A stretch of 24,000 bases of DNA from an uncultured Candidatus Saccharibacteria bacterium (GTDB lineage: Bacteria; Patescibacteriota; Minisyncoccia; Phycocordibacterales; Phycocordibacteraceae). Below, one piece after another: positions 2,992 to 16,084 of this stretch; positions within the stretch are counted from its first letter, which is position 1, and each line of letters starts with the position of its first letter. Location: positions 1-24,000 of the forward strand of contig CAYQCB010000011.1 in the NCBI GenBank assembly GCA_964415875.1, read 5' to 3'. A model generated the notes under the pieces. The model was not told the DNA's origin, did not search any database, and saw only the letters and a list, made by a program, of their open reading frames with translations. The position numbers and the translations under genes were made by a program.

Positions 2992-3039
2992 CCATAAAAA
3001 TGAAAAACCGCGCTTTCGCGCGGTTTTTCATTTTTATGG
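2992..3039. terminator. Bidirectional intrinsic terminator shared by convergent nrdJ and rnpB
   Basis: A perfect 22-bp inverted repeat, ccataaaaatgaaaaaccgcgc / gcgcggtttttcatttttatgg, surrounds a tttc loop. The GC core is flanked by an A-run and a T-run, so a U-tract is available on both strands. Confidence 0.8.
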
Positions 3040-3399
3040 ACTTGGCCGATAAGCCGAATTCTGTCTGCCGAGCCGAAGCTCGGGAGGCGATCATTTATCT
3101 GGGACAGTAATTGCTTGCTGCCTCGAGCGGCACCTCAGTCACACGTCTTACGAAGCGTACTGATACGACCTTGCACGGGGGTAAGGATTTAGCCGTTTCA
3201 CCTCCCCGATTGCTCGGGGAACTCATCCGCATCTTTCGAAGCGGATGCTGGCGCGCTTTCGCACGCACAGCGTCTCTGCTCGCACCTCGCGCCTCACGGC
3301 GTGTGGGAATTGCCCACTACCTGACTGCCCACATGAGGCCCGTGTTCGGACTTTCCTCTCTCTTCACAAAGTGTCGAGAGTAATCGCCTGGCCAAGTCC
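3038..3399 (-). ncRNA. rnpB: RNase P RNA, bacterial type A
   Basis: The minus strand reads GGACUUGGCC...GAGAGGAAAGUCCGAACAC...ACAGAAUUCGGCUUAUCGGCCAAGUCC. Both universally conserved blocks are present (GAGGAAAGUCCG and ACAGAAnnCGGCUUA). The 5' GGACUUGGCC and 3' GGCCAAGUCC ends pair as P1. Confidence 0.9.
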
Positions 3400-9850: not shown

Positions 9851-9924
9851 GCGGATATGGTTTAGTGGTAGAACAGTTGCTTCCCAAGCAACGGGCGGGA
9901 GTTCGATTCTCCCTATCCGCACCA
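9851..9924 (+). tRNA. tRNA-Gly, anticodon CCC, with encoded CCA
   Basis: Manual cloverleaf: GCGGATA TG GTTT AGTGGTA GAAC A GTTGC TTCCCAA GCAAC GGGC GGGAG TTCGATT CTCCC TATCCGC A CCA. Confidence 0.9.
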
Positions 9925-10958: not shown

Positions 10959-11201
10959 ATGGATAAAACAATCACTATTTACAGCACGCCGACTTGCCAC
11001 TTCTGCCAGATGACGAAAGAGTTTCTCGGAGAAAAGGGTATCAGCTATACGGACTATGACGTAGCGCATGATCTTGAAAAGCGCCAGGAAATGATTCAGA
11101 AATCGGGGCAGATGGGCGTGCCGGTCATCTTCATCGGAGATGAAATGATCATTGGTTTTGACAAGGAGCGGCTTGTCTCCACACTCGGAATCGAAGCATA
11201 A
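10959..11201 (+). CDS. Glutaredoxin-like protein (NrdH/YruB-type thioredoxin fold)
   Basis: 80 aa with an IYSTPTCHFCQ active-site CxxC and a GVPVIFIGDEMIIGF cis-Pro region. Confidence 0.85.
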   Translation: MDKTITIYSTPTCHFCQMTKEFLGEKGISYTDYDVAHDLEKRQEMIQKSGQMGVPVIFIGDEMIIGFDKERLVSTLGIEA

Positions 11202-11208
11202 GCGAAAC

Positions 11209-11250
11209 CACAAAAGCGCCCGGGGCCTACAGGCCCCGGGCGCTTTTGTG
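11209..11250 (+). terminator. Intrinsic terminator after the glutaredoxin-like gene
   Basis: A perfect 19-bp stem, cacaaaagcgcccggggcc / ggccccgggcgcttttgtg, has the T-run inside and after the 3' arm. Confidence 0.8.
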
Positions 11251-11268
11251 TTAGTCTCAAACCGTATT

Positions 11269-11340
11269 GCCCTTGTAGTTCAATGGATAGAACAGAGGCT
11301 TCCTAAGCTTCCGATCTAGGTTCGACTCCTAGCTAGGGCA
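11269..11340 (+). tRNA. tRNA-Arg, anticodon CCU, no encoded CCA
   Basis: Manual cloverleaf: GCCCTTG TA GTTC AATGGATA GAAC A GAGGC TTCCTAA GCTTC CGAT CTAGG TTCGACT CCTAG CTAGGGC A. There is one U-U mismatch at acceptor pair 6-67. Confidence 0.85.
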
Positions 11341-11514
11341 CAAAAATCCCCACAGGGCTATGTGCCGACCAGTAAAAAAACAAAAACTGAGTTTAGAGGA
11401 GAGAGATTTTAGCTTCGTCCCCTGGATGCTTGCGCGCCCAGGCTCTGATGCTTTTCGCTCAAACAGTATTTAATTAATTCCACCCGTCGACCCATAGCCC
11501 TCTAGGGACTTGGT

Positions 11515-11565
11515 ACCTTTTCGTCCTTTTGGACTCATCAGCTCGAGCACACACTCGAGTAAGGC
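11515..11565 (-). ncRNA. Type III hammerhead ribozyme motif
   Basis: The minus-strand RNA reads GCCUUA/CUCGAG-UGUGUG-CUCGAG-CUGAUGA-GUCC-AAAA-GGAC-GAAA-AGGU. The full catalytic core is present, stems I and II are closed by loops, and stem III is open. Confidence 0.7.
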
Positions 11566-11603
11566 TAGGTTTTTTAGGGAAACCTACAAACCTGGGTGGG
11601 GAA

Positions 11604-11843
11604 TCATTGTCCCCACCACTCAGCAAACGGATCGAGCAGCGTCGGTGAGGCGTAGTGCACCGTCGGAGTGGCGACAGTCCTGCATTCATCGCGTAAGGCC
11701 TGCGCCACCAAAAACTCGAAGTGCGACACAAGCTCTCCCTGCTTTCTCAAGGCATATCGCGGAGCGGCGAGCGGCTCGAAAGTCACAATATTCGACACGC
11801 CATCATTTTCCATTTGGGCATTTCCCCATAGGGTGAGGGTCAT
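11604..11843 (-). CDS. Hypothetical protein, 79 aa (island ORF)
   Basis: MTLTLWGNAQMENDG...AEWWGQ. Its ATG overlaps the stop of the upstream 63-aa ORF (ATGA at 11840-11843). The longer 161-aa track version overlaps two better-supported ORFs, so I rejected it. Confidence 0.5.
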   Translation of the reverse strand: MTLTLWGNAQMENDGVSNIVTFEPLAAPRYALRKQGELVSHFEFLVAQALRDECRTVATPTVHYASPTLLDPFAEWWGQ

Positions 11844-12031
11844 TTTCCGTTGATAGCTCGCCCTAGGGCTACGAGAAGCCCTCCAATAGCACTGCGCATC
11901 AGGCGCACTGCTGCCAGGATTGGCCATCGGAAAACCGCAGCCGCTGCGTGGGGCCCACGAATCATCATGGCCGCTCCCACCAGCACCATCCAGAGAGCGG
12001 TCAGTGAGACGATAAGGTTTGAAAAGTCCAT
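11840..12031 (-). CDS. Small membrane protein, 63 aa with 2 predicted TM segments (island ORF)
   Basis: GAAAGGAG lies 7 nt upstream of the ATG. The sequence is hydrophobic (LIVSLTALWMVLVGAAMMI and AIGGLLVALG). Confidence 0.55.
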   Translation of the reverse strand: MDFSNLIVSLTALWMVLVGAAMMIRGPHAAAAVFRWPILAAVRLMRSAIGGLLVALGRAINGK

Positions 12032-12089
12032 GAAGACTCCTTTCTGTTTCGGGATGGCACCATTGCGACCCCCTTATGCCGCCCTGCAC

Positions 12090-12203
12090 CTATTGCAGGG
12101 CGGCATAAATTGGGGCGAGCAAGCTGCTCAGAAGCCAGTGATATTCGATGCCGAGCAGCACTGCTGCCGCGACGAGCGCAACTAGAAACAAAAAGCTATC
12201 CAC
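12090..12203 (-). CDS. Small hydrophobic peptide, 37 aa with a GTG start (island ORF; below the ORF-track size cutoff)
   Basis: Read by hand: AAGGAG-9 nt-GTG, then VDSFLFLVALVAAAVLLGIEYHWLLSSLLAPIYAALQ. The start is 4 nt after the stop of the 123-aa ORF. The last codons form the 5' arm of the 12074-12108 hairpin. Confidence 0.4.
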   Translation of the reverse strand: MDSFLFLVALVAAAVLLGIEYHWLLSSLLAPIYAALQ

Positions 12204-12207
12204 CAGC

Positions 12208-12579
12208 TTACTCTCCTTTCACCACCTCTCCCCACAGGAAGTCGGTGATCTTCCCAGCCAGTTCATCGGAGATCCCAATATCGACGAGGATCCCTTTTCC
12301 GACCTCGAGCGCCAGATCTTCCTCGCGGCTCCGCTTGCTGGTGACCTTTGCGGCCAGTTTCGGGTAGGCGGCCAAAAACCGTGCCTCCTTGGCGAAGTCA
12401 CGGCGATTTTTTGCGATGTCACGAAGACCATTCTTGAGACCATCGATGAAACCACCAAGGCTGTTCTCTGTGACCTCCACCAAAATGGAGATTTCCACGG
12501 AGGCGAGCTCCTTTTTTGTGCTTGCCTCTGACACCAACTGGGTCACAGCCTCAGTCCAGAGCTCGTTTGGAATAGCCAT
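12208..12579 (-). CDS. Hypothetical protein, 123 aa, predicted helical and acidic (island ORF)
   Basis: TAGGAG lies 10 nt upstream of the ATG. The composition is clean and coding-like. I recognise no family. Confidence 0.6.
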   Translation of the reverse strand: MAIPNELWTEAVTQLVSEASTKKELASVEISILVEVTENSLGGFIDGLKNGLRDIAKNRRDFAKEARFLAAYPKLAAKVTSKRSREEDLALEVGKGILVDIGISDELAGKITDFLWGEVVKGE

Positions 12580-12780
12580 GGCACGTTTCTCCTACCCCTG
12601 ATCCCCGGGCGCGGGTGCACCGTGTGGTGCAAAGGACACAGTAGGCGCGCGACTCATTTTATGAGTCGCGCGCCTATGAGTGCCCAGTACCATTCTCTAC
12701 CAACGCGCGAGTCTCGTGCGCTGGATAAAGCGGATGAACACCAGAACCAACTGAATGTTCACCCGAAGCTGCCAAACCAT

Positions 12781-12936
12781 ACAACGACACAGAGTGACAG
12801 AACTCTGAGCGAGGGCGGAGCTCATTCCGCGTGGGCCAGACGCTATCGCATTGGTTTCCTCCTTTGCGACGATTGTGTAGAAACTGCCGTGTCAGTTTCT
12901 ACGGAAAGAACAAGCCACCACACGGGGTGGGGGAGG
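12781..12936 (-). repeat. Copy A of the structured intergenic element (about 156 nt)
   Basis: It aligns with 13756-13935 in long identical blocks: acaacgacacagag, gacagaactctgagcgagggcgg, atcgcattggtttcctcctttgcga, and gtgtagaaactgccgtgtcagtttctacgg. It begins right after the stop codon of the 180-aa ORF. Confidence 0.85.
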
Positions 12937-13479
12937 CTAGACGGTCACCGGCCGCATCGGGTCGATGACCCCGGCCCCCTCGAGGGCCGTGATGAGGGCC
13001 CGGCCGAGCGCGGCGCGCTCAGCCTCCCCCTTCTGGTAGTTGGCGAGCCAGTCGACCGCTCTCGCGACCGACAGTTCGGAGGTCTCAAACGAGACCTCCG
13101 CCGCCTCCAGGGCGGAGGCGATCACCTCCGCCCTCCAGACGGATGCGCCCGGGAACGTCACCCGGGCGCGGTAACCACCGCCGGACGCGAGTCCGACGGC
13201 GATTTGCGTCGCCGATGAAGGGGTGGTCAACACGACCTCCCCCTGCTGCGTCGACTCCACCGTGGTGAAGTCGACGCAGTCCTGGGCGGAGACAAGTTCC
13301 GCCTCTAGCGTGCGGCAGTCGGAGGCGATAAACGCCCCCAACATGATGACAGCGAGCGCCTCGCGCTCCCCCAACGTCCCATTGAGGGACCCGAAGGGGG
13401 CGAATGCCCCCGCGAGGAACCTGACCGCCTCGACGGCGGTCAGGTTGGCCGACGAAATCTCAGTCACGATTTTGGCCAT
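12937..13479 (-). CDS. Hypothetical protein, 180 aa (island ORF)
   Basis: AAGGAGG lies 6 nt upstream of ATG 13479 (MAKIVTEISS). Codons are strongly GC3-biased. The upstream extension to 13557 lacks an RBS. Confidence 0.65.
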   Translation of the reverse strand: MAKIVTEISSANLTAVEAVRFLAGAFAPFGSLNGTLGEREALAVIMLGAFIASDCRTLEAELVSAQDCVDFTTVESTQQGEVVLTTPSSATQIAVGLASGGGYRARVTFPGASVWRAEVIASALEAAEVSFETSELSVARAVDWLANYQKGEAERAALGRALITALEGAGVIDPMRPVTV

Positions 13480-13729
13480 AATGGCCTCCTTTACTGGCCA
13501 TGTGCCCGGGGGCATACATACGGCCGATTGAACACTTGCTACGGGAATCCGCAGCAAGAAAGTCTGCGGGGAGCGTTACCTCCCCGATTGGTGCCGAGCG
13601 GAGTTGAATCACTCGGTCAATGAGCCCAGCGCCTTGCAGCGCGGGAAAGTCTGGGAATCGCACCTTGCGATCCCTTTCAAATTCTCCACGCGGGGTGAAG
13701 TGCTTGAAAGGGAAGGTCAACATAACCAT
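13460..13729 (-). CDS. Hypothetical protein, 89 aa (island ORF)
   Basis: GGAGGT lies 4 nt upstream of ATG 13729 (MVMLTFPFKHF). Its 3' end overlaps the next ORF by 20 nt in another frame. Confidence 0.5.
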   Translation of the reverse strand: MVMLTFPFKHFTPRGEFERDRKVRFPDFPALQGAGLIDRVIQLRSAPIGEVTLPADFLAADSRSKCSIGRMYAPGHMASKGGHYGQNRD

Positions 13730-13755
13730 GCTGACCTCCAAGCCGTCTAACCGAT

Positions 13756-13935
13756 ACAACGACACAGAGCGACAGAACTCTGAGCGAGGGCGGTGCTCAT
13801 CTCCGCACGGAGCAAGTACGGCCCAGGGGCCGTCACGTACATCGCATTGGTTTCCTCCTTTGCGATTGTTGTGTAGAAACTGCCGTGTCAGTTTCTACGG
13901 GTTAAAGAACAGCCCACCGCACGGGGTGGTTTCGG
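13756..13935 (-). repeat. Copy B of the structured intergenic element (about 180 nt)
   Basis: It has the same blocks as copy A plus about 20 extra nt that form their own hairpin (acggccc ct gggccgt). It begins right after the stop codon of the 198-aa ORF. Confidence 0.85.
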
Positions 13936-14532
13936 CTAGTCGACCCGTTTGATGCCGCTAAAGAACACGGCATCCAAGTCCTCGAATACCTCGTTAATTG
14001 CCAGTGCGGCGACGGGATTCGTTTCCGTCGCCGACTGGCCACGCATTACCGAGGCGAAGTTCCTCAGTCTTCCGAGCCGGAGCTCGTCGAGGCACCCCTG
14101 GAGGTAGGTTTGCCTCCCCCGGGGGTTCCCTTCGGCCGCCTTTTGGGCGGCACGAAAGGCCTCCTCGGAGGCCTTCACAAGGTGGTACTCGGGGTTCAGT
14201 CCGTAGGGCAGAGACCCGAAGGCCTCCATGTACAGCCGATGCGGAAAGCCCGCGAAGTCGCCCGTGAGGGCGTACTCTAGCACCACATCGATTGCGTCGG
14301 GGATCGAAACTCCCGCCGCCAAGAATTCACCCCGTACCATTGCGACAAATGCCGCAACGGTTGCCTCCCTTTGTGGGAGGTGCGCGATGTGCTGATCGCG
14401 CGCCTCCCTGTGCGCCATATCCTCGACGCGGTAAAAGCCCGCAGCGCGTGCCTTGGCCCGGGCCGCTTCCGCAGCGCGGCCGGTCAGAGCCTTGGCTCTG
14501 ACGACGATCGGGTCGTTCGAGAATCTCGCCAT
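13936..14532 (-). CDS. Hypothetical protein, 198 aa (island ORF)
   Basis: MARFSNDPIVVRAK... with GC3-rich codons. The start is uncertain because the RBS is weak (GGAAGG). ATG 14532 lies 8 nt after the stop of the possible 64-aa ORF. In-frame alternatives exist further upstream, as far as the track ORF start at 14661. Confidence 0.6.
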   Translation of the reverse strand: MARFSNDPIVVRAKALTGRAAEAARAKARAAGFYRVEDMAHREARDQHIAHLPQREATVAAFVAMVRGEFLAAGVSIPDAIDVVLEYALTGDFAGFPHRLYMEAFGSLPYGLNPEYHLVKASEEAFRAAQKAAEGNPRGRQTYLQGCLDELRLGRLRNFASVMRGQSATETNPVAALAINEVFEDLDAVFFSGIKRVD

Positions 14533-14539
14533 AATAACT

Positions 14540-14734
14540 TTACCTTCCATTCCAGGTAACATGCAGTACCGCGCATGTGCGGACGGCCACCCTTGTGACC
14601 TGGGAATCTTGCGATCCCTCGTACCGTACCGATTCGTCTTGTGGACACGGCGTGTCCACAAGTGGGGAATCAGTCCGGCAACGAGGAATAACAGTGCAGT
14701 CGCTCTTTTTGAGCAGTTGTTCTGCGTTACTCAT
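14540..14734 (-). CDS. Possible 64-aa ORF, or an untranslated structured leader
   Basis: MSNAEQLLKKSDC... has no convincing SD and contains the 11-bp perfect hairpin at 14638-14662. Its stop lies 8 nt before the next ATG. Confidence 0.25.
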   Translation of the reverse strand: MSNAEQLLKKSDCTVIPRCRTDSPLVDTPCPQDESVRYEGSQDSQVTRVAVRTCAVLHVTWNGR

Positions 14735-14836
14735 AGTTACCTATTCAGTTTTCAAGGTACCTTCTGCCTTCGCAGAGAGAAGTCGGAGGCGATGCAATAA
14801 TAGCTGCTCTCGCCAGCCGGCTTCTTCCAACGAAAA

Positions 14837-14870
14837 GGCGACCGATTTCTCCAGGGAGAAATCGGTCGCC
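14837..14870. terminator. Strong intrinsic terminator inside the island leader, bidirectional by sequence
   Basis: A perfect 15-bp stem, ggcgaccgatttctc / gagaaatcggtcgcc, has a 4-nt loop. It is flanked by aaaa on one side and tttt on the other. Confidence 0.75.
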
Positions 14871-14998
14871 TTTTCCCCAAATAGCGTAGCTATTTGGCGC
14901 CTGGGGCAGTGGGCCCCTGGCTTTGCGACACGACTTTCTCCTCTAAAAGAAAGTGTGTTTATTTACTGGGATGGAAGGTTCAACTAACTCGTACTGCT

Positions 14999-15026
14999 AG
15001 TATACATGAACCGTGAGATTTGTCAA
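14999..15026 (-). promoter_or_regulatory. Island promoter P1 (TTGACA-16 nt-TATACT)
   Basis: The minus strand reads acTTGACAaatctcacggttcatgTATACTag. The -35 is consensus, and the -10 matches the TATACT boxes seen upstream of backbone genes. Confidence 0.65.
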
Positions 15027-15077
15027 GTGCCTGGAGCTCTGCCTCTGCAACTGCCCGGAACTTGACTAACTGCAAAT

Positions 15078-15105
15078 AGTATACACGAAGGCGTATATTT
15101 GTCAA
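15078..15105 (-). promoter_or_regulatory. Island promoter P2 (TTGACA-16 nt-TATACT), a tandem copy 79 bp upstream of P1
   Basis: The minus strand reads acTTGACAaatatacgccttcgtgTATACTat. It shares ACTTGACAAAT and GTATACTA with P1. Confidence 0.6.
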
Positions 15106-15191
15106 GTATTTTCTATATCCACGCGTTTGCGCAAAAGCCGACTTTTTAAGGGTATACTGTCTGCATTATCCCCACTTAGCTTACCGACTTC

Positions 15192-15668
15192 ATGTTTAGA
15201 GACTCTGCCAATTTCATCAGCCGCTACTTCTACCGTCAACCAGCTGGCATGTTTTTCCTCAGGCTTGTTACGGGTTTGATTTTCATTATGCATGGTCTCA
15301 TGAAGCTGCAGTCGCCCGAGATGATGGCGGGTTTCTTTGGTACTCTTGGACTTCACCCCGCTCTTTTCTGGGTGTGGGCAATAGGACTGCTTGAAGTGGT
15401 GGGAGGCGCAGCGCTTATCCTAGGCGTTGCAGCGCGCGTCTTTGGCGGGCTGCTTGCCATAGAAATGATTGCGGCCATTTTCCTTACGGGTCTTGGCAGA
15501 GGGTTTGGTGCGCATGAGTTTGAACTCTTGCTGGCAGTTGCTGCACTTGCTATAGGGCTCTCAGGTAGCGGACGCTGGTCGCTCTACAATCACAGTTGTG
15601 TGCGATGCGGTGGAGTCTTTTGCAATGGCGACACCTGTGTCGTCGCTGTAAGCGAAGAAGTGGTGTAA
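15192..15668 (+). CDS. DoxX-family membrane protein
   Basis: FFLRLVTGLIFIMHGLMKL plus four TM segments is typical of DoxX. The C-terminus is Cys-rich (CVRCGGVFCNGDTC). A TATACT box lies at 15153-15158. Confidence 0.75.
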   Translation: MFRDSANFISRYFYRQPAGMFFLRLVTGLIFIMHGLMKLQSPEMMAGFFGTLGLHPALFWVWAIGLLEVVGGAALILGVAARVFGGLLAIEMIAAIFLTGLGRGFGAHEFELLLAVAALAIGLSGSGRWSLYNHSCVRCGGVFCNGDTCVVAVSEEVV

Positions 15669-16006: not shown

Positions 16007-16079
16007 GCTTGGATAGCTCAGTTGGTAGAGCATTCCCCTGAAGAGGGAAGGGTCGTCGGTTCGAGCCCGACTCCAAGCA
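16007..16079 (+). tRNA. tRNA-Phe, anticodon GAA, no encoded CCA
   Basis: Manual cloverleaf: GCTTGGA TA GCTC AGTTGGTA GAGC A TTCCC CTGAAGA GGGAA GGGTC GTCGG TTCGAGC CCGAC TCCAAGC A. Confidence 0.92.
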
Positions 16080-16084
16080 CAGTC

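What the first reader, a model, noticed from the sequence alone, without database searches (positions are those of the whole stretch)
11515..11565. Complete type III hammerhead ribozyme core at the 3' end of the orphan operon, next to and antisense to tRNA-Arg
The minus-strand RNA reads 5'-GCCUUA|CUCGAG UGUGUG CUCGAG CUGAUGA GUCC AAAA GGAC GAAA AGGU-3'. Every invariant hammerhead position is present: C3 U4 G5 A6 U7 G8 A9, the G10.1-C11.1 closing pair, G12 A13 A14, the A15.1-U16.1 pair, and H17 = A. Stem I is 6 bp with a 6-nt loop. Stem II is 4 bp with an AAAA loop. Stem III is open and about 5 bp (A-U, A-U, G-C, G-C, U-G), which gives type III topology. Cleavage is predicted between 11560 and 11559 on the minus strand. 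The motif sits 39 nt after the stop of the last island ORF and about 175 nt before transcription would run antisense into tRNA-Arg. It could therefore define the operon's 3' end or release a downstream RNA. As far as I recall, type III topology is the less common one in bacteria, and this genomic context is unusual.
Basis: partly seen in the sequence, partly recalled or inferred. Interest (0 to 1): 0.8.

Follow-up and report, generated by a model that had tools for sequence, protein, structure and literature searches.

The report
Hammerhead ribozyme releasing a conserved RNA
This is a genuine self-cutting (hammerhead) RNA at the end of an orphan gene island in a probable CPR (Patescibacteria) bacterium; it is the front part of a conserved module that appears to cut a ~220-base structured RNA free from the operon's messenger, which gives a testable idea of what bacterial hammerheads are for.

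Summary
Window 11515-11565 (minus strand) carries a complete type III hammerhead, with predicted cleavage between 11560 and 11559. Rfam misses it (23-25 bits, below threshold), but Rfam misses nearly the whole class. A model built from 12 independent relatives scores it 67.9 bits (E~1e-22). 144 Mb of shuffled sequence gave no equally good match. In a 16-member family, 99.6% of stem positions pair and 12 of 15 pairs show compensatory changes.

Type III hammerheads of this build are not rare. They occur in phage contigs and are abundant in CPR genomes (96 of 119 genome hits).

The new part is the context. The ribozyme is fused to a conserved ~170-nt rod-shaped RNA (11511-11344), itself supported by covariation, that ends in a U-tract beside tRNA-Arg. 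The rod carries an invariant CUCUCUCCUCUAA, and its complement UUAGAGGAGAGAGUC lies in the operon leader 0.9-5.4 kb upstream in four independent genomes. The cargo between them varies: orphans here, Csx3, SAVED and MoxR-VWA genes elsewhere.

Most likely mechanism: self-cleavage separates the mRNA from a 5'-OH non-coding RNA. Whether that RNA pairs with the leader is inferred, not shown.

The parts
11515..11565 (-). Type III hammerhead ribozyme. Stem III 11565-11561 / 11519-11515; H17 = A11560 (cleavage 11560|11559); stem I 11559-11554 / 11547-11542 with loop UGUGUG 11553-11548; core CUGAUGA 11541-11535; stem II 11534-11531 / 11526-11523 with loop AAAA 11530-11527; GAA 11522-20.
   Evidence: Sequence; own descriptor; shuffles; MFE fold recovers all three stems; family covariation; class-specific covariance model 67.9 bits; the 50-nt block is identical in homologue L156 while the flanks diverge.
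11566..11617 (-). Two conserved hairpins just upstream of the ribozyme. Hairpin 1 is GGUGGGGA/UCCCCACC (11617-11595) and overlaps the ORF5 stop codon. Hairpin P0 (about 11593-11566) has an A-rich loop and abuts stem III. After cleavage they would form the 3' end of the mRNA.
   Evidence: Folds. A P0-type hairpin with an A-rich loop precedes the ribozyme in most family members and in the phage copies.
11344..11511 (-). Rod-like structured RNA (~168 nt) fused to the 3' side of the ribozyme. It has a long closing helix (arms about 11511-11486 and 11369-11344), an apical GCAA-capped hairpin, and ends in GGGGAUUUUUG, 2 nt from the 3' end of tRNA-Arg.
   Evidence: Inverted repeat. MFE -95 kcal/mol, z = -6.7. 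Family covariation: 35 pairs, 86% paired against ~40% in register-shifted controls, 26 pairs with compensatory changes. G.U:A.C = 69:19, which favours this strand. No Rfam family at E<=0.1.
11393..11405 (-). Invariant motif CUCUCUCCUCUAA in an internal loop of the rod's 3' half.
   Evidence: Identical in all 16 family members while the surrounding helices covary. Five exact occurrences in 2.4 Mb searched, against ~0.04 expected.
14934..14947 (-). Leader motif UUUAGAGGAGAAAG(UCGU), 13 of 14 complementary to the rod motif, near the 5' end of the island's transcript.
   Evidence: Inverted repeat I14. The exact UUAGAGGAGAGAGUC lies on the same strand 862, 4601 and 5356 nt upstream of the ribozyme in L061, L164 and L158. 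It is the best duplex partner of the rod motif there, z -4 to -5; in the window it is second best, -16.9 kcal/mol. The leaders are homologous beyond the motif.
14999..15105 (-). Two near-consensus sigma-70 promoters (TTGACA-16-TATACT, 11 of 12 matches each) that head the island's transcription unit.
   Evidence: direct repeat D5.
11604..14532 (-). Orphan cargo ORFs of the cassette: ORF1 14532-13936, ORF2 13479-12937, ORF3 12579-12208, ORF4 12031-11840 (63-aa membrane peptide), ORF5 11843-11604.
   Evidence: No Pfam, PHROG or PADLOC hits. ORF1 and ORF5 match only themselves (plus the L156 fragment) among 5.8 billion proteins. No match to the cargo of other family members.
11269..11341 (+). tRNA-Arg(CCT), convergent with the cassette; its 3' end lies 2 nt from the base of the rod.
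   Evidence: A convergent tRNA within 0.6 kb of the module also occurs in L156, L158 and L163.

Best explanation
It is a functional type III hammerhead that forms the 5' part of a conserved terminal module (hairpin P0, hammerhead, rod RNA, U-tract or terminator). The module closes a variable-cargo operon found in CPR bacteria. The island is transcribed on the minus strand from the twin promoters at ~15.1 kb. Once the polymerase has passed 11515, the ribozyme folds and cuts between A11560 and C11559. That leaves (i) the mRNA ending in a 2',3'-cyclic phosphate just after two stable hairpins, and (ii) a ~220-nt RNA with a 5'-OH, made of the ribozyme body plus the rod, that ends at the U-tract next to tRNA-Arg. 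Shown: the motif, its non-random nature, covariation of all three ribozyme helices and of the rod, the conserved order of the parts, the invariant rod motif and its complement in the leader. Inferred: that cleavage happens in vivo, that the released rod RNA is the functional product, and (least certain) that its CUCUCUCCUCUAA loop pairs with UUAGAGGAGAGAGUC in the leader of the same operon to feed back on its expression.
For: Motif and chance. Class-specific covariance model: 67.9 bits, E~6.5e-23. Ribozyme covariation: 99.6% of cells paired, 12 of 15 pairs compensatory, score 0.80 against <=0.14 for shifted registers; core, G10.1-C11.1 and A15.1-U16.1 invariant. Homologous locus L156: 50-nt ribozyme block identical while the adjacent ORF5 3' part is ~55% identical with a frameshift. 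Rod. Module conserved in 16 distinct sequences, including Kaiserbacteria and Nomurabacteria MAGs; 7 have a separate canonical terminator after the rod and 4-5 have a U-tract at its base. Leader complement in 4 of 4 members where a leader is identifiable. In longer cassettes, internal hammerheads of the same build separate cargo genes and only the last one carries the rod. This fits the transcript-processing role proposed for prophage hammerheads (PMC3088659). In the general class, 77 of 93 copies lie downstream of a co-oriented ORF.
Against: There is no experimental evidence of cleavage or of the RNA species. The cleavage triplet UUA was not seen among 122 other copies (H17 = A in 7 of 122), so the rate may be modest. 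Stem III is only 5 bp here and 4 bp in L156. The rod and leader motifs are invariant, so their pairing has no covariation support. In the window the pairing has one mismatch and ranks only second among upstream duplexes. The leader motif was not found in L170 (4.3 kb upstream) or L166 (2.5 kb), possibly because the contigs end too early. Long downstream hairpins are not a general feature of the hammerhead class.
Confidence: 0.7

Rival explanations
1. The ribozyme is real, but its only job is 3'-end formation or insulation of the mRNA. It trims the messenger behind two protective hairpins and uncouples it from read-through into antisense tRNA-Arg. The rod is just a large terminator or stability element with no sequence-specific role.
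For: The rod's closing helix is followed directly by a U-tract in the window, L156, L158 and L170. Conserved hairpins sit just upstream of the cut. 26 of 93 class members sit in convergent gene pairs.
Against: A terminator needs no invariant 13-nt internal-loop motif kept across 16 members whose helices have diverged. Seven members carry an additional canonical terminator after the rod. The complementary leader motif is linked in four genomes.
Confidence: 0.2
2. The leader and rod motifs and the rod's long inverted repeat are DNA-level features of a mobile element inserted beside tRNA genes: terminal inverted repeats, recombination sites or hairpin ends. The ribozyme is a passenger.
For: 13-14-bp inverted repeats bracket variable cargo. 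A convergent tRNA lies within 0.6 kb in the window, L156, L158 and L163, against 3 of 166 for the general class. L156 has a 135-nt indel at the tRNA junction. The cargo includes defence-type genes typical of mobile islands.
Against: G.U pairs outnumber A.C pairs 69:19 in the rod, which points to a strand-specific RNA structure. Homology extends beyond the motifs on both sides, so they are not the element's termini. No transposase or integrase is present, and there is no direct repeat of the tRNA 3' end. The module is absent from viral contigs.
Confidence: 0.06
3. The motif is a chance match or a decayed, inactive relic of a hammerhead.
For: Rfam scores are below threshold. The UUA cleavage triplet is unusual. 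Stem III is short, and weaker in L156.
Against: No comparable match in 144 Mb of shuffles. 67.9 bits on an independent class model. Every core position is canonical. Perfect conservation in L156 within an ~85%-identical region. Covariation across the family.
Confidence: 0.02
4. The ribozyme belongs to a circular-RNA (retrozyme- or viroid-like) cycle: cleavage followed by ligation circularises an RNA, and the rod plays the role of a viroid-like stem.
For: Type III topology and loops identical to a 377-nt virusoid-like contig, L012. A rod-shaped RNA sits next to the ribozyme. Tandem ribozymes occur in the longer cassettes.
Against: The window holds only one hammerhead, so no unit can be excised at both ends. 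The rod ends in terminators. Perreault et al. looked for circular or spliced products from multi-hammerhead prophage loci and found none (PMC3088659).
Confidence: 0.02

Closest known systems
Hammerhead ribozyme, type III (Rfam RF00008; clan CL00010)
   Same: All invariant core nucleotides, a three-way junction with stem III open, an NUH cleavage site, a 6-bp stem I and a 4-bp stem II with capping loops. The Rfam model aligns end to end.
   Different: Scores 23.1 bits against a gathering score of 48.5. Stem II's loop is 4 nt where the Rfam consensus has 8. The whole CPR and phage sub-class is largely invisible to the Rfam threshold.
Prophage- and phage-associated bacterial hammerheads (Perreault et al. 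2011, PMC3088659; reviewed by de la Pena et al. 2017, PMC6155905)
   Same: Intergenic location, flanking small non-conserved ORFs, several ribozymes per operon in related cassettes, and a proposed role in cutting long transcripts into shorter units.
   Different: Here the host lineage is probably CPR/Patescibacteria. No integrase or phage genes are present. The terminal ribozyme is fused to a conserved non-coding RNA whose loop is complementary to the operon leader. None of these features is described in those papers or elsewhere in the searched library.
Type III hammerheads of plant satellite RNAs and virusoids (e.g. sTRSV; comparison from my own knowledge, plus contig L012)
   Same: Same topology and nearly the same loops: stem I capped by U-G-U-G-type loop, stem II GUCC-AAAA-GGAC in L012. 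This suggests the same loop-loop tertiary contact.
   Different: Those ribozymes process multimeric circular RNA replicons. This one is encoded once in a bacterial chromosome and is followed by a terminator.
Antisense RNAs processed out of their own operon transcript, e.g. phage P1/P7 c4 RNA released by RNase P, and 3'UTR-5'UTR pairing as in S. aureus icaR (both from memory; analogies only)
   Same: A regulatory RNA segment is co-transcribed with its target, carries a C/U-rich sequence complementary to a purine-rich leader element of the same transcript, and must be cut free or folded back to act.
   Different: Processing here would be autocatalytic. The leader element is not an obvious ribosome-binding site of any ORF. 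No functional evidence exists.

Membership tests
Hammerhead ribozyme (type III) | Conserved catalytic core: C3 U4 G5 A6 N7 G8 A9 ... G12 A13 A14 | tested here: met
   CUGAUGA at 11541-11535 and GAA at 11522-11520. These positions are invariant in all 16 family members.
Hammerhead ribozyme (type III) | Three helices around the core, with pairs G10.1-C11.1 and A15.1-U16.1 next to it, supported by covariation | tested here: met
   99.6% of 237 cells paired; 12 of 15 pairs show compensatory changes; shifted registers give 32-52% paired. G10.1-C11.1 and U16.1-A15.1 hold in 16 of 16.
Hammerhead ribozyme (type III) | Cleavage site N-U-H (H is not G) 5' of stem I; open helix is stem III | tested here: met
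   U11562-U11561-A11560 | C11559. Stems I and II are closed by loops and stem III is open. The alternative type I reading from Rfam fails because no stem III hairpin can form.
Hammerhead ribozyme (type III) | Loop 1 / loop 2 tertiary contact that gives fast cleavage at physiological Mg2+ | tested here: inconclusive
   Loop 1 UGUGUR and loop 2 RAAA are strongly conserved across about 150 copies, as expected for a contact. No structure or kinetics are available.
Hammerhead ribozyme (type III) | Score at or above the Rfam gathering threshold | tested here: not met
   23.1 bits against 48.5. This is an operational curation cut-off, not a biological feature, and it also fails for 34 of 35 sister copies tested. 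The class-specific model gives 67.9 bits.
Hammerhead ribozyme (type III) | Site-specific self-cleavage yielding 2',3'-cyclic phosphate and 5'-OH ends | not testable with these tools
   Needs in vitro transcription and cleavage, or RNA end mapping.
Prophage-type multi-hammerhead operons (Perreault 2011) | Ribozymes flank single genes or short gene blocks in phage- or integrase-associated regions | tested here: inconclusive
   Related cassettes L158, L170 and L160 have 1-3 internal ribozymes between genes. The window has only the terminal one and no integrase or phage hits. The module is absent from IMG/VR contigs.
Known structured RNA families (6S, SRP, Drum, ROOL/GOLLD and others) as identity of the rod RNA | Match to an Rfam covariance model | tested here: not met
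   No family at E<=1 over 11200-15300, and none at E<=0.1 in eight other members.

The most novel reading that the evidence does not exclude
The terminal hammerhead is a biogenesis device for a previously undescribed CPR small RNA. Self-cleavage frees a ~220-nt rod RNA whose invariant CUCUCUCCUCUAA loop base-pairs with UUAGAGGAGAGAGUC at the 5' end of the same operon's leader. This would give autoregulation (or cross-immunity between copies) of a tRNA-linked, variable-cargo conflict/defence cassette. It would be one of the first concrete biological roles assigned to a bacterial hammerhead.
Probability: 0.25. Interest if true: 0.8.

Novelty: new variant of a known kind. Interest (0 to 1): 0.62.

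Why it matters
What bacterial hammerheads do has been an open question since 2010-2011 (PMC6155905 says so explicitly). This locus, with its 15 relatives, gives a defined and experimentally tractable architecture: promoter, conserved leader, variable cargo, ribozyme, conserved rod RNA with a leader-complementary loop, terminator. The hypothesis 'the ribozyme makes the 5' end of a regulatory RNA' can therefore be tested with a few constructs. The work also shows that this type III sub-class is very common in CPR/Patescibacteria genomes yet almost invisible to Rfam's threshold, so annotation pipelines systematically miss it. Finally, it links hammerhead-punctuated operons to defence-type cargo (Csx3, SAVED, MoxR-VWA).

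Tried and rejected
- Rfam at gathering and permissive thresholds: the hammerhead is sub-threshold and there is no other ribozyme class (twister, pistol, hatchet and others) in the island.
- Type I reading suggested by Rfam's best hit: rejected, because no stem III hairpin is possible and the family covariation fits type III.
- tRNA adjacency as a property of the ribozyme class: rejected, 3 of 166 copies. It is a property of this cassette instead.
- Long downstream hairpin as a general class feature: rejected, since the median MFE equals the controls.
- boxA-like GUUCUUU after hammerheads as a marker of rRNA leaders: no rRNA nearby. The same element also scores as a weak terminator tail, so the boxA reading stays unverified.
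- Direct repeat of the tRNA 3' end (att site) at the far end of the island: none.
- Empty-site comparison through the flanking genes: the contigs are too short.
- Exact-protein look-ups of island ORFs: mostly not on record.
- Homologues of ORF1 and ORF5: none beyond self and L156.
- CRISPR arrays in family loci: none.
- Small ORF downstream of the ribozyme (28 aa): not conserved in L156, so rejected.
- A covariance model from the 140-sequence pool: set aside as partly circular, because that pool was retrieved with the window's own stem II. A 12-member independent set was used instead.
- Literature on hammerheads in CPR bacteria: none found in the library. My recollection that Drum RNAs follow hammerheads could not be confirmed in the main text of PMC5737381.

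Full report
**1. The observation**

H17 is A11560, so cleavage is predicted between 11560 and 11559.

The nearest upstream ORF on that strand ends at 11604. tRNA-Arg(CCT) lies at 11269-11341 on the plus strand.

A strict type III descriptor that I wrote finds this site and no other in the 24 kb. In 144 Mb of dinucleotide-preserving shuffles of the window, a relaxed version hit 15 times, and nothing matched at intermediate or observed stringency. The motif is therefore not a chance match.

**2. Covariance models**

Rfam reports no hammerhead at gathering thresholds. With permissive settings the type I model gives 25.4 bits (threshold 34), using the core and stem II but a spurious closing helix. 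The type III model aligns end to end at 23.1 bits (threshold 48.5).

This failure is not informative, because Rfam also misses most sister copies:
- none of 19 phage loci that carry obvious copies;
- all but one of the copies in 16 CPR loci;
- every family hammerhead it reported (27.9-34.4 bits).

I therefore built a model from 12 independent relatives. They had been retrieved through a downstream motif, not through their stems, and the window and its homologue were excluded. With filters off, that model scores the window's site 67.9 bits, E about 6.5e-23. The next best hit scores 9.2 bits. The window thus has exactly one hammerhead.

**3. The class**

Of 128 genomic copies, 122 are type III with the same build as ours:
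- a 6-bp stem I closed by a U.G or U-A pair around GUGU (54 have exactly our loop);
- a 4-bp stem II with an AAAA loop;
- a stem III of 3-10 bp;
- H17 = C in 94, U in 21 and A in 7.

96 of the 119 loci are named as CPR/Patescibacteria lineages, 12 are unclassified and 11 belong to other phyla. Several genomes hold several copies.

Among the copies in bacterial genomes, 77 of 93 lie downstream of a co-oriented ORF, and 26 of 93 sit in a convergent gene pair as in the window. Only 3 of 166 copies (genomic and viral loci plus the window) have a tRNA within 600 nt.

Published work already describes type III hammerheads in bacterial intergenic regions that flank small non-conserved ORFs, with a prophage link and an unknown role (PMC3088659; PMC6155905). 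I found no paper in the library that links hammerheads to CPR bacteria.

**4. The homologous locus**

The island's ORFs are orphans:
- no Pfam, PHROG or PADLOC hits;
- ORF1 matches only itself among 5.8 billion proteins;
- ORF5 matches only itself and a fragment on a 1-kb contig, L156.

L156 is about 85% identical to the window across ORF4, ORF5, the ribozyme, the spacer and tRNA-Arg. A 50-nt block containing the ribozyme is identical in both. By contrast, the 3' two-thirds of ORF5 is about 55% identical and carries a frameshifting indel. The only nearby change weakens the outermost stem III pair (G.U becomes G/A).

**5. What follows the ribozyme**

A 26-nt inverted repeat (11344-11369 and 11486-11511) brackets the space between the ribozyme and the tRNA. 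Folding gives the hammerhead's three stems, preceded by two hairpins. Downstream it gives a rod-like hairpin of about 170 nt (-95 kcal/mol, z = -6.7).

Long hairpins are not a general feature downstream of this ribozyme class. However, two CPR MAGs, Kaiserbacteria L060 and Nomurabacteria L061, show the same layout. All four rods contain the same 13-mer, CUCUCUCCUCUAA. It occurs 5 times in 2.4 Mb searched, against about 0.04 expected.

A metagenome scan for ribozyme, gap and motif together returned 14 more contigs. Viral contigs returned none.

The 16 distinct members align well, and RNAalifold recovers the hammerhead and the rod. Explicit pair counts were as follows.

| Structure | Cells paired | Pairs with compensatory change | Covariation score | Shifted registers |
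|---|---|---|---|---|
| Hammerhead | 99.6% | 12 of 15 | 0.80 | score <=0.14 |
| Rod | 86% | 26 of 35 | 0.47 | ~40% paired, score ~0.1 |

Other supporting points:
- G.U pairs outnumber A.C pairs 69:19 in the rod and 12:1 in the ribozyme. Both structures therefore belong to the ribozyme's strand, which argues for RNA and against a symmetric DNA feature.
- Seven members have a separate canonical terminator after the rod. The window, L156, L158 and L170 have a U-tract directly at the rod's base.
- No Rfam family matches the rod.

**6. The cassette**

On the ribozyme's strand, the exact complement of the rod motif, UUAGAGGAGAGAGUC, lies upstream of the ribozyme:
- 862 nt upstream in L061;
- 4601 nt in L161/L164;
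- 5356 nt in L158;
- 3405 nt in the window, with one mismatch (14947-14934).

In L061 and the window it sits just downstream of a sigma-70 promoter. Most of the other contigs hold only 0.1-2.5 kb upstream. L170, with 4.3 kb, shows no leader motif.

The four leaders share further blocks. In L061, L158 and L164 the leader motif is the best duplex partner of the rod motif within 6 kb (-23 to -26 kcal/mol, z -4 to -5). In the window it is second best (-16.9 kcal/mol).

The cargo between leader and ribozyme differs in every member:
- orphans in the window;
- Csx3/AAA-Csx3 (E = 7e-56) and an HD-like protein in L158;
- a SAVED-TM effector (E = 5e-18) in L170;
- a MoxR-VWA pair in L164.

Some cargo families recur between members. 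Longer cassettes have one to three internal hammerheads of the same build between genes, and only the last one is followed by the rod.

A convergent tRNA lies within 0.6 kb downstream of the module in the window, L156, L158 and L163. tRNA adjacency is therefore a property of the cassette, not of the ribozyme.

**7. Mechanism**

The best-supported reading is this. The island is transcribed from the twin promoters at 15105-14999. The hammerhead folds after the polymerase passes 11515 and cuts at 11560|11559. The mRNA is left with two 3' hairpins and a cyclic phosphate. A 5'-OH RNA of about 220 nt, made of the ribozyme body and the rod, ends at the U-tract next to tRNA-Arg.

What is shown: the conserved order of the parts, the covariation and the invariant loop motif. 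What is inferred: cleavage in vivo, and any role for the released RNA.

The leader complementarity suggests antisense feedback on the same operon. Both motifs are invariant, however, so there is no covariation to test it, and the window's own pairing is imperfect.

The rivals are, in descending order:
- a pure 3'-end or terminator role;
- DNA-level inverted repeats of a mobile element;
- a relic or chance motif;
- a circular-RNA cycle.

**8. Verdict**

The ribozyme is a new member of a known class. The ribozyme-plus-rod module, with its leader complement, inside CPR variable-cargo cassettes, is an arrangement I could not find described, so I rate the whole as a new variant of a known kind. The host assignment to CPR/Patescibacteria is inferred from the gene content and from the relatives, not from a named record.

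Noticed in passing
window 12774-12943 and 13749-13942: A ~170-190-nt direct repeat (92-95% identical over its core blocks). Each copy starts at the stop codon of a minus-strand ORF. On the minus strand it contains a weak terminator-like hairpin (CCACCCCGUG(C/U)GGUGG) followed by UGUUCUUU(AAC), a perfect hairpin GUAGAAACUG-ACACGG-CAGUUUCUAC, and a hairpin that sequesters AAGGAGG plus AUG. These junctions occupy the places where related cassettes have internal hammerheads.
   Followed up: partly
many CPR loci (e.g. L037, L039, L085, L089, L099, L111, L112, L114, L123, L160, L170); window 13913-13921 and 12914-12922: GUUCUUU(G/A)AAA directly follows many hammerheads of this class, and leader blocks read YUCUUUGACAA. 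From memory it resembles the boxA antitermination element, but no rRNA genes are nearby and it also scores as a terminator tail. Its identity is unresolved.
   Followed up: partly
genome loci L037-L155: This type III hammerhead sub-class is heavily concentrated in CPR/Patescibacteria MAGs (96 of 119 loci, several copies per genome). It is almost never detected at Rfam's gathering threshold. No paper in the searched library mentions it.
   Followed up: partly
window 11604-11843 (-) compared with L156: The 3' two-thirds of 'ORF5' is ~55% identical with a frameshift, while the sequence on both sides is 95-100% identical. It is either not a real gene or a fast-evolving segment.
   Followed up: no
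L156 758-894 (between the rod and tRNA-Arg): A 135-nt insertion relative to the window, flanked by short T-runs and containing a 10-bp perfect inverted repeat GGCACAAAAC/GUUUUGUGCC. It shows that the rod-tRNA junction is plastic.
   Followed up: no
window 14832-14875: A perfect 21-bp palindrome with a 2-nt loop lies in the operon leader. The leader also carries GGGAUCGCAAG hairpins, repeated before ORF1 and ORF2 (14608-14619, 13664-13675) and also present in L061.
   Followed up: no
window 3034-3399 (-): Bacterial RNase P RNA class A, 125.8 bits. tRNA-Gly(CCC) lies at 9851-9924 and tRNA-Phe(GAA) at 16007-16080.
   Followed up: no
L012 (IMG/VR contig of 377 nt): A 377-nt 'viral' contig carries the same hammerhead core, stem II and loop 1 type. 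It is probably a plant virusoid or satellite RNA, not a phage.
   Followed up: no
L158, L170, L164: Cassettes of this family carry type III CRISPR/CBASS-style accessory genes (Csx3-AAA, SAVED-TM) and a MoxR-VWA pair, yet no CRISPR array lies nearby. Hammerhead-punctuated operons may be a vehicle for conflict-system genes in CPR bacteria.
   Followed up: partly
window 11567-11631 (+): A sub-threshold Rfam hit to the L2-Alphaproteobacteria leader (23.3 bits against 37.8). It is explained by the two hairpins upstream of the ribozyme read on the opposite strand, so it is spurious.
   Followed up: yes
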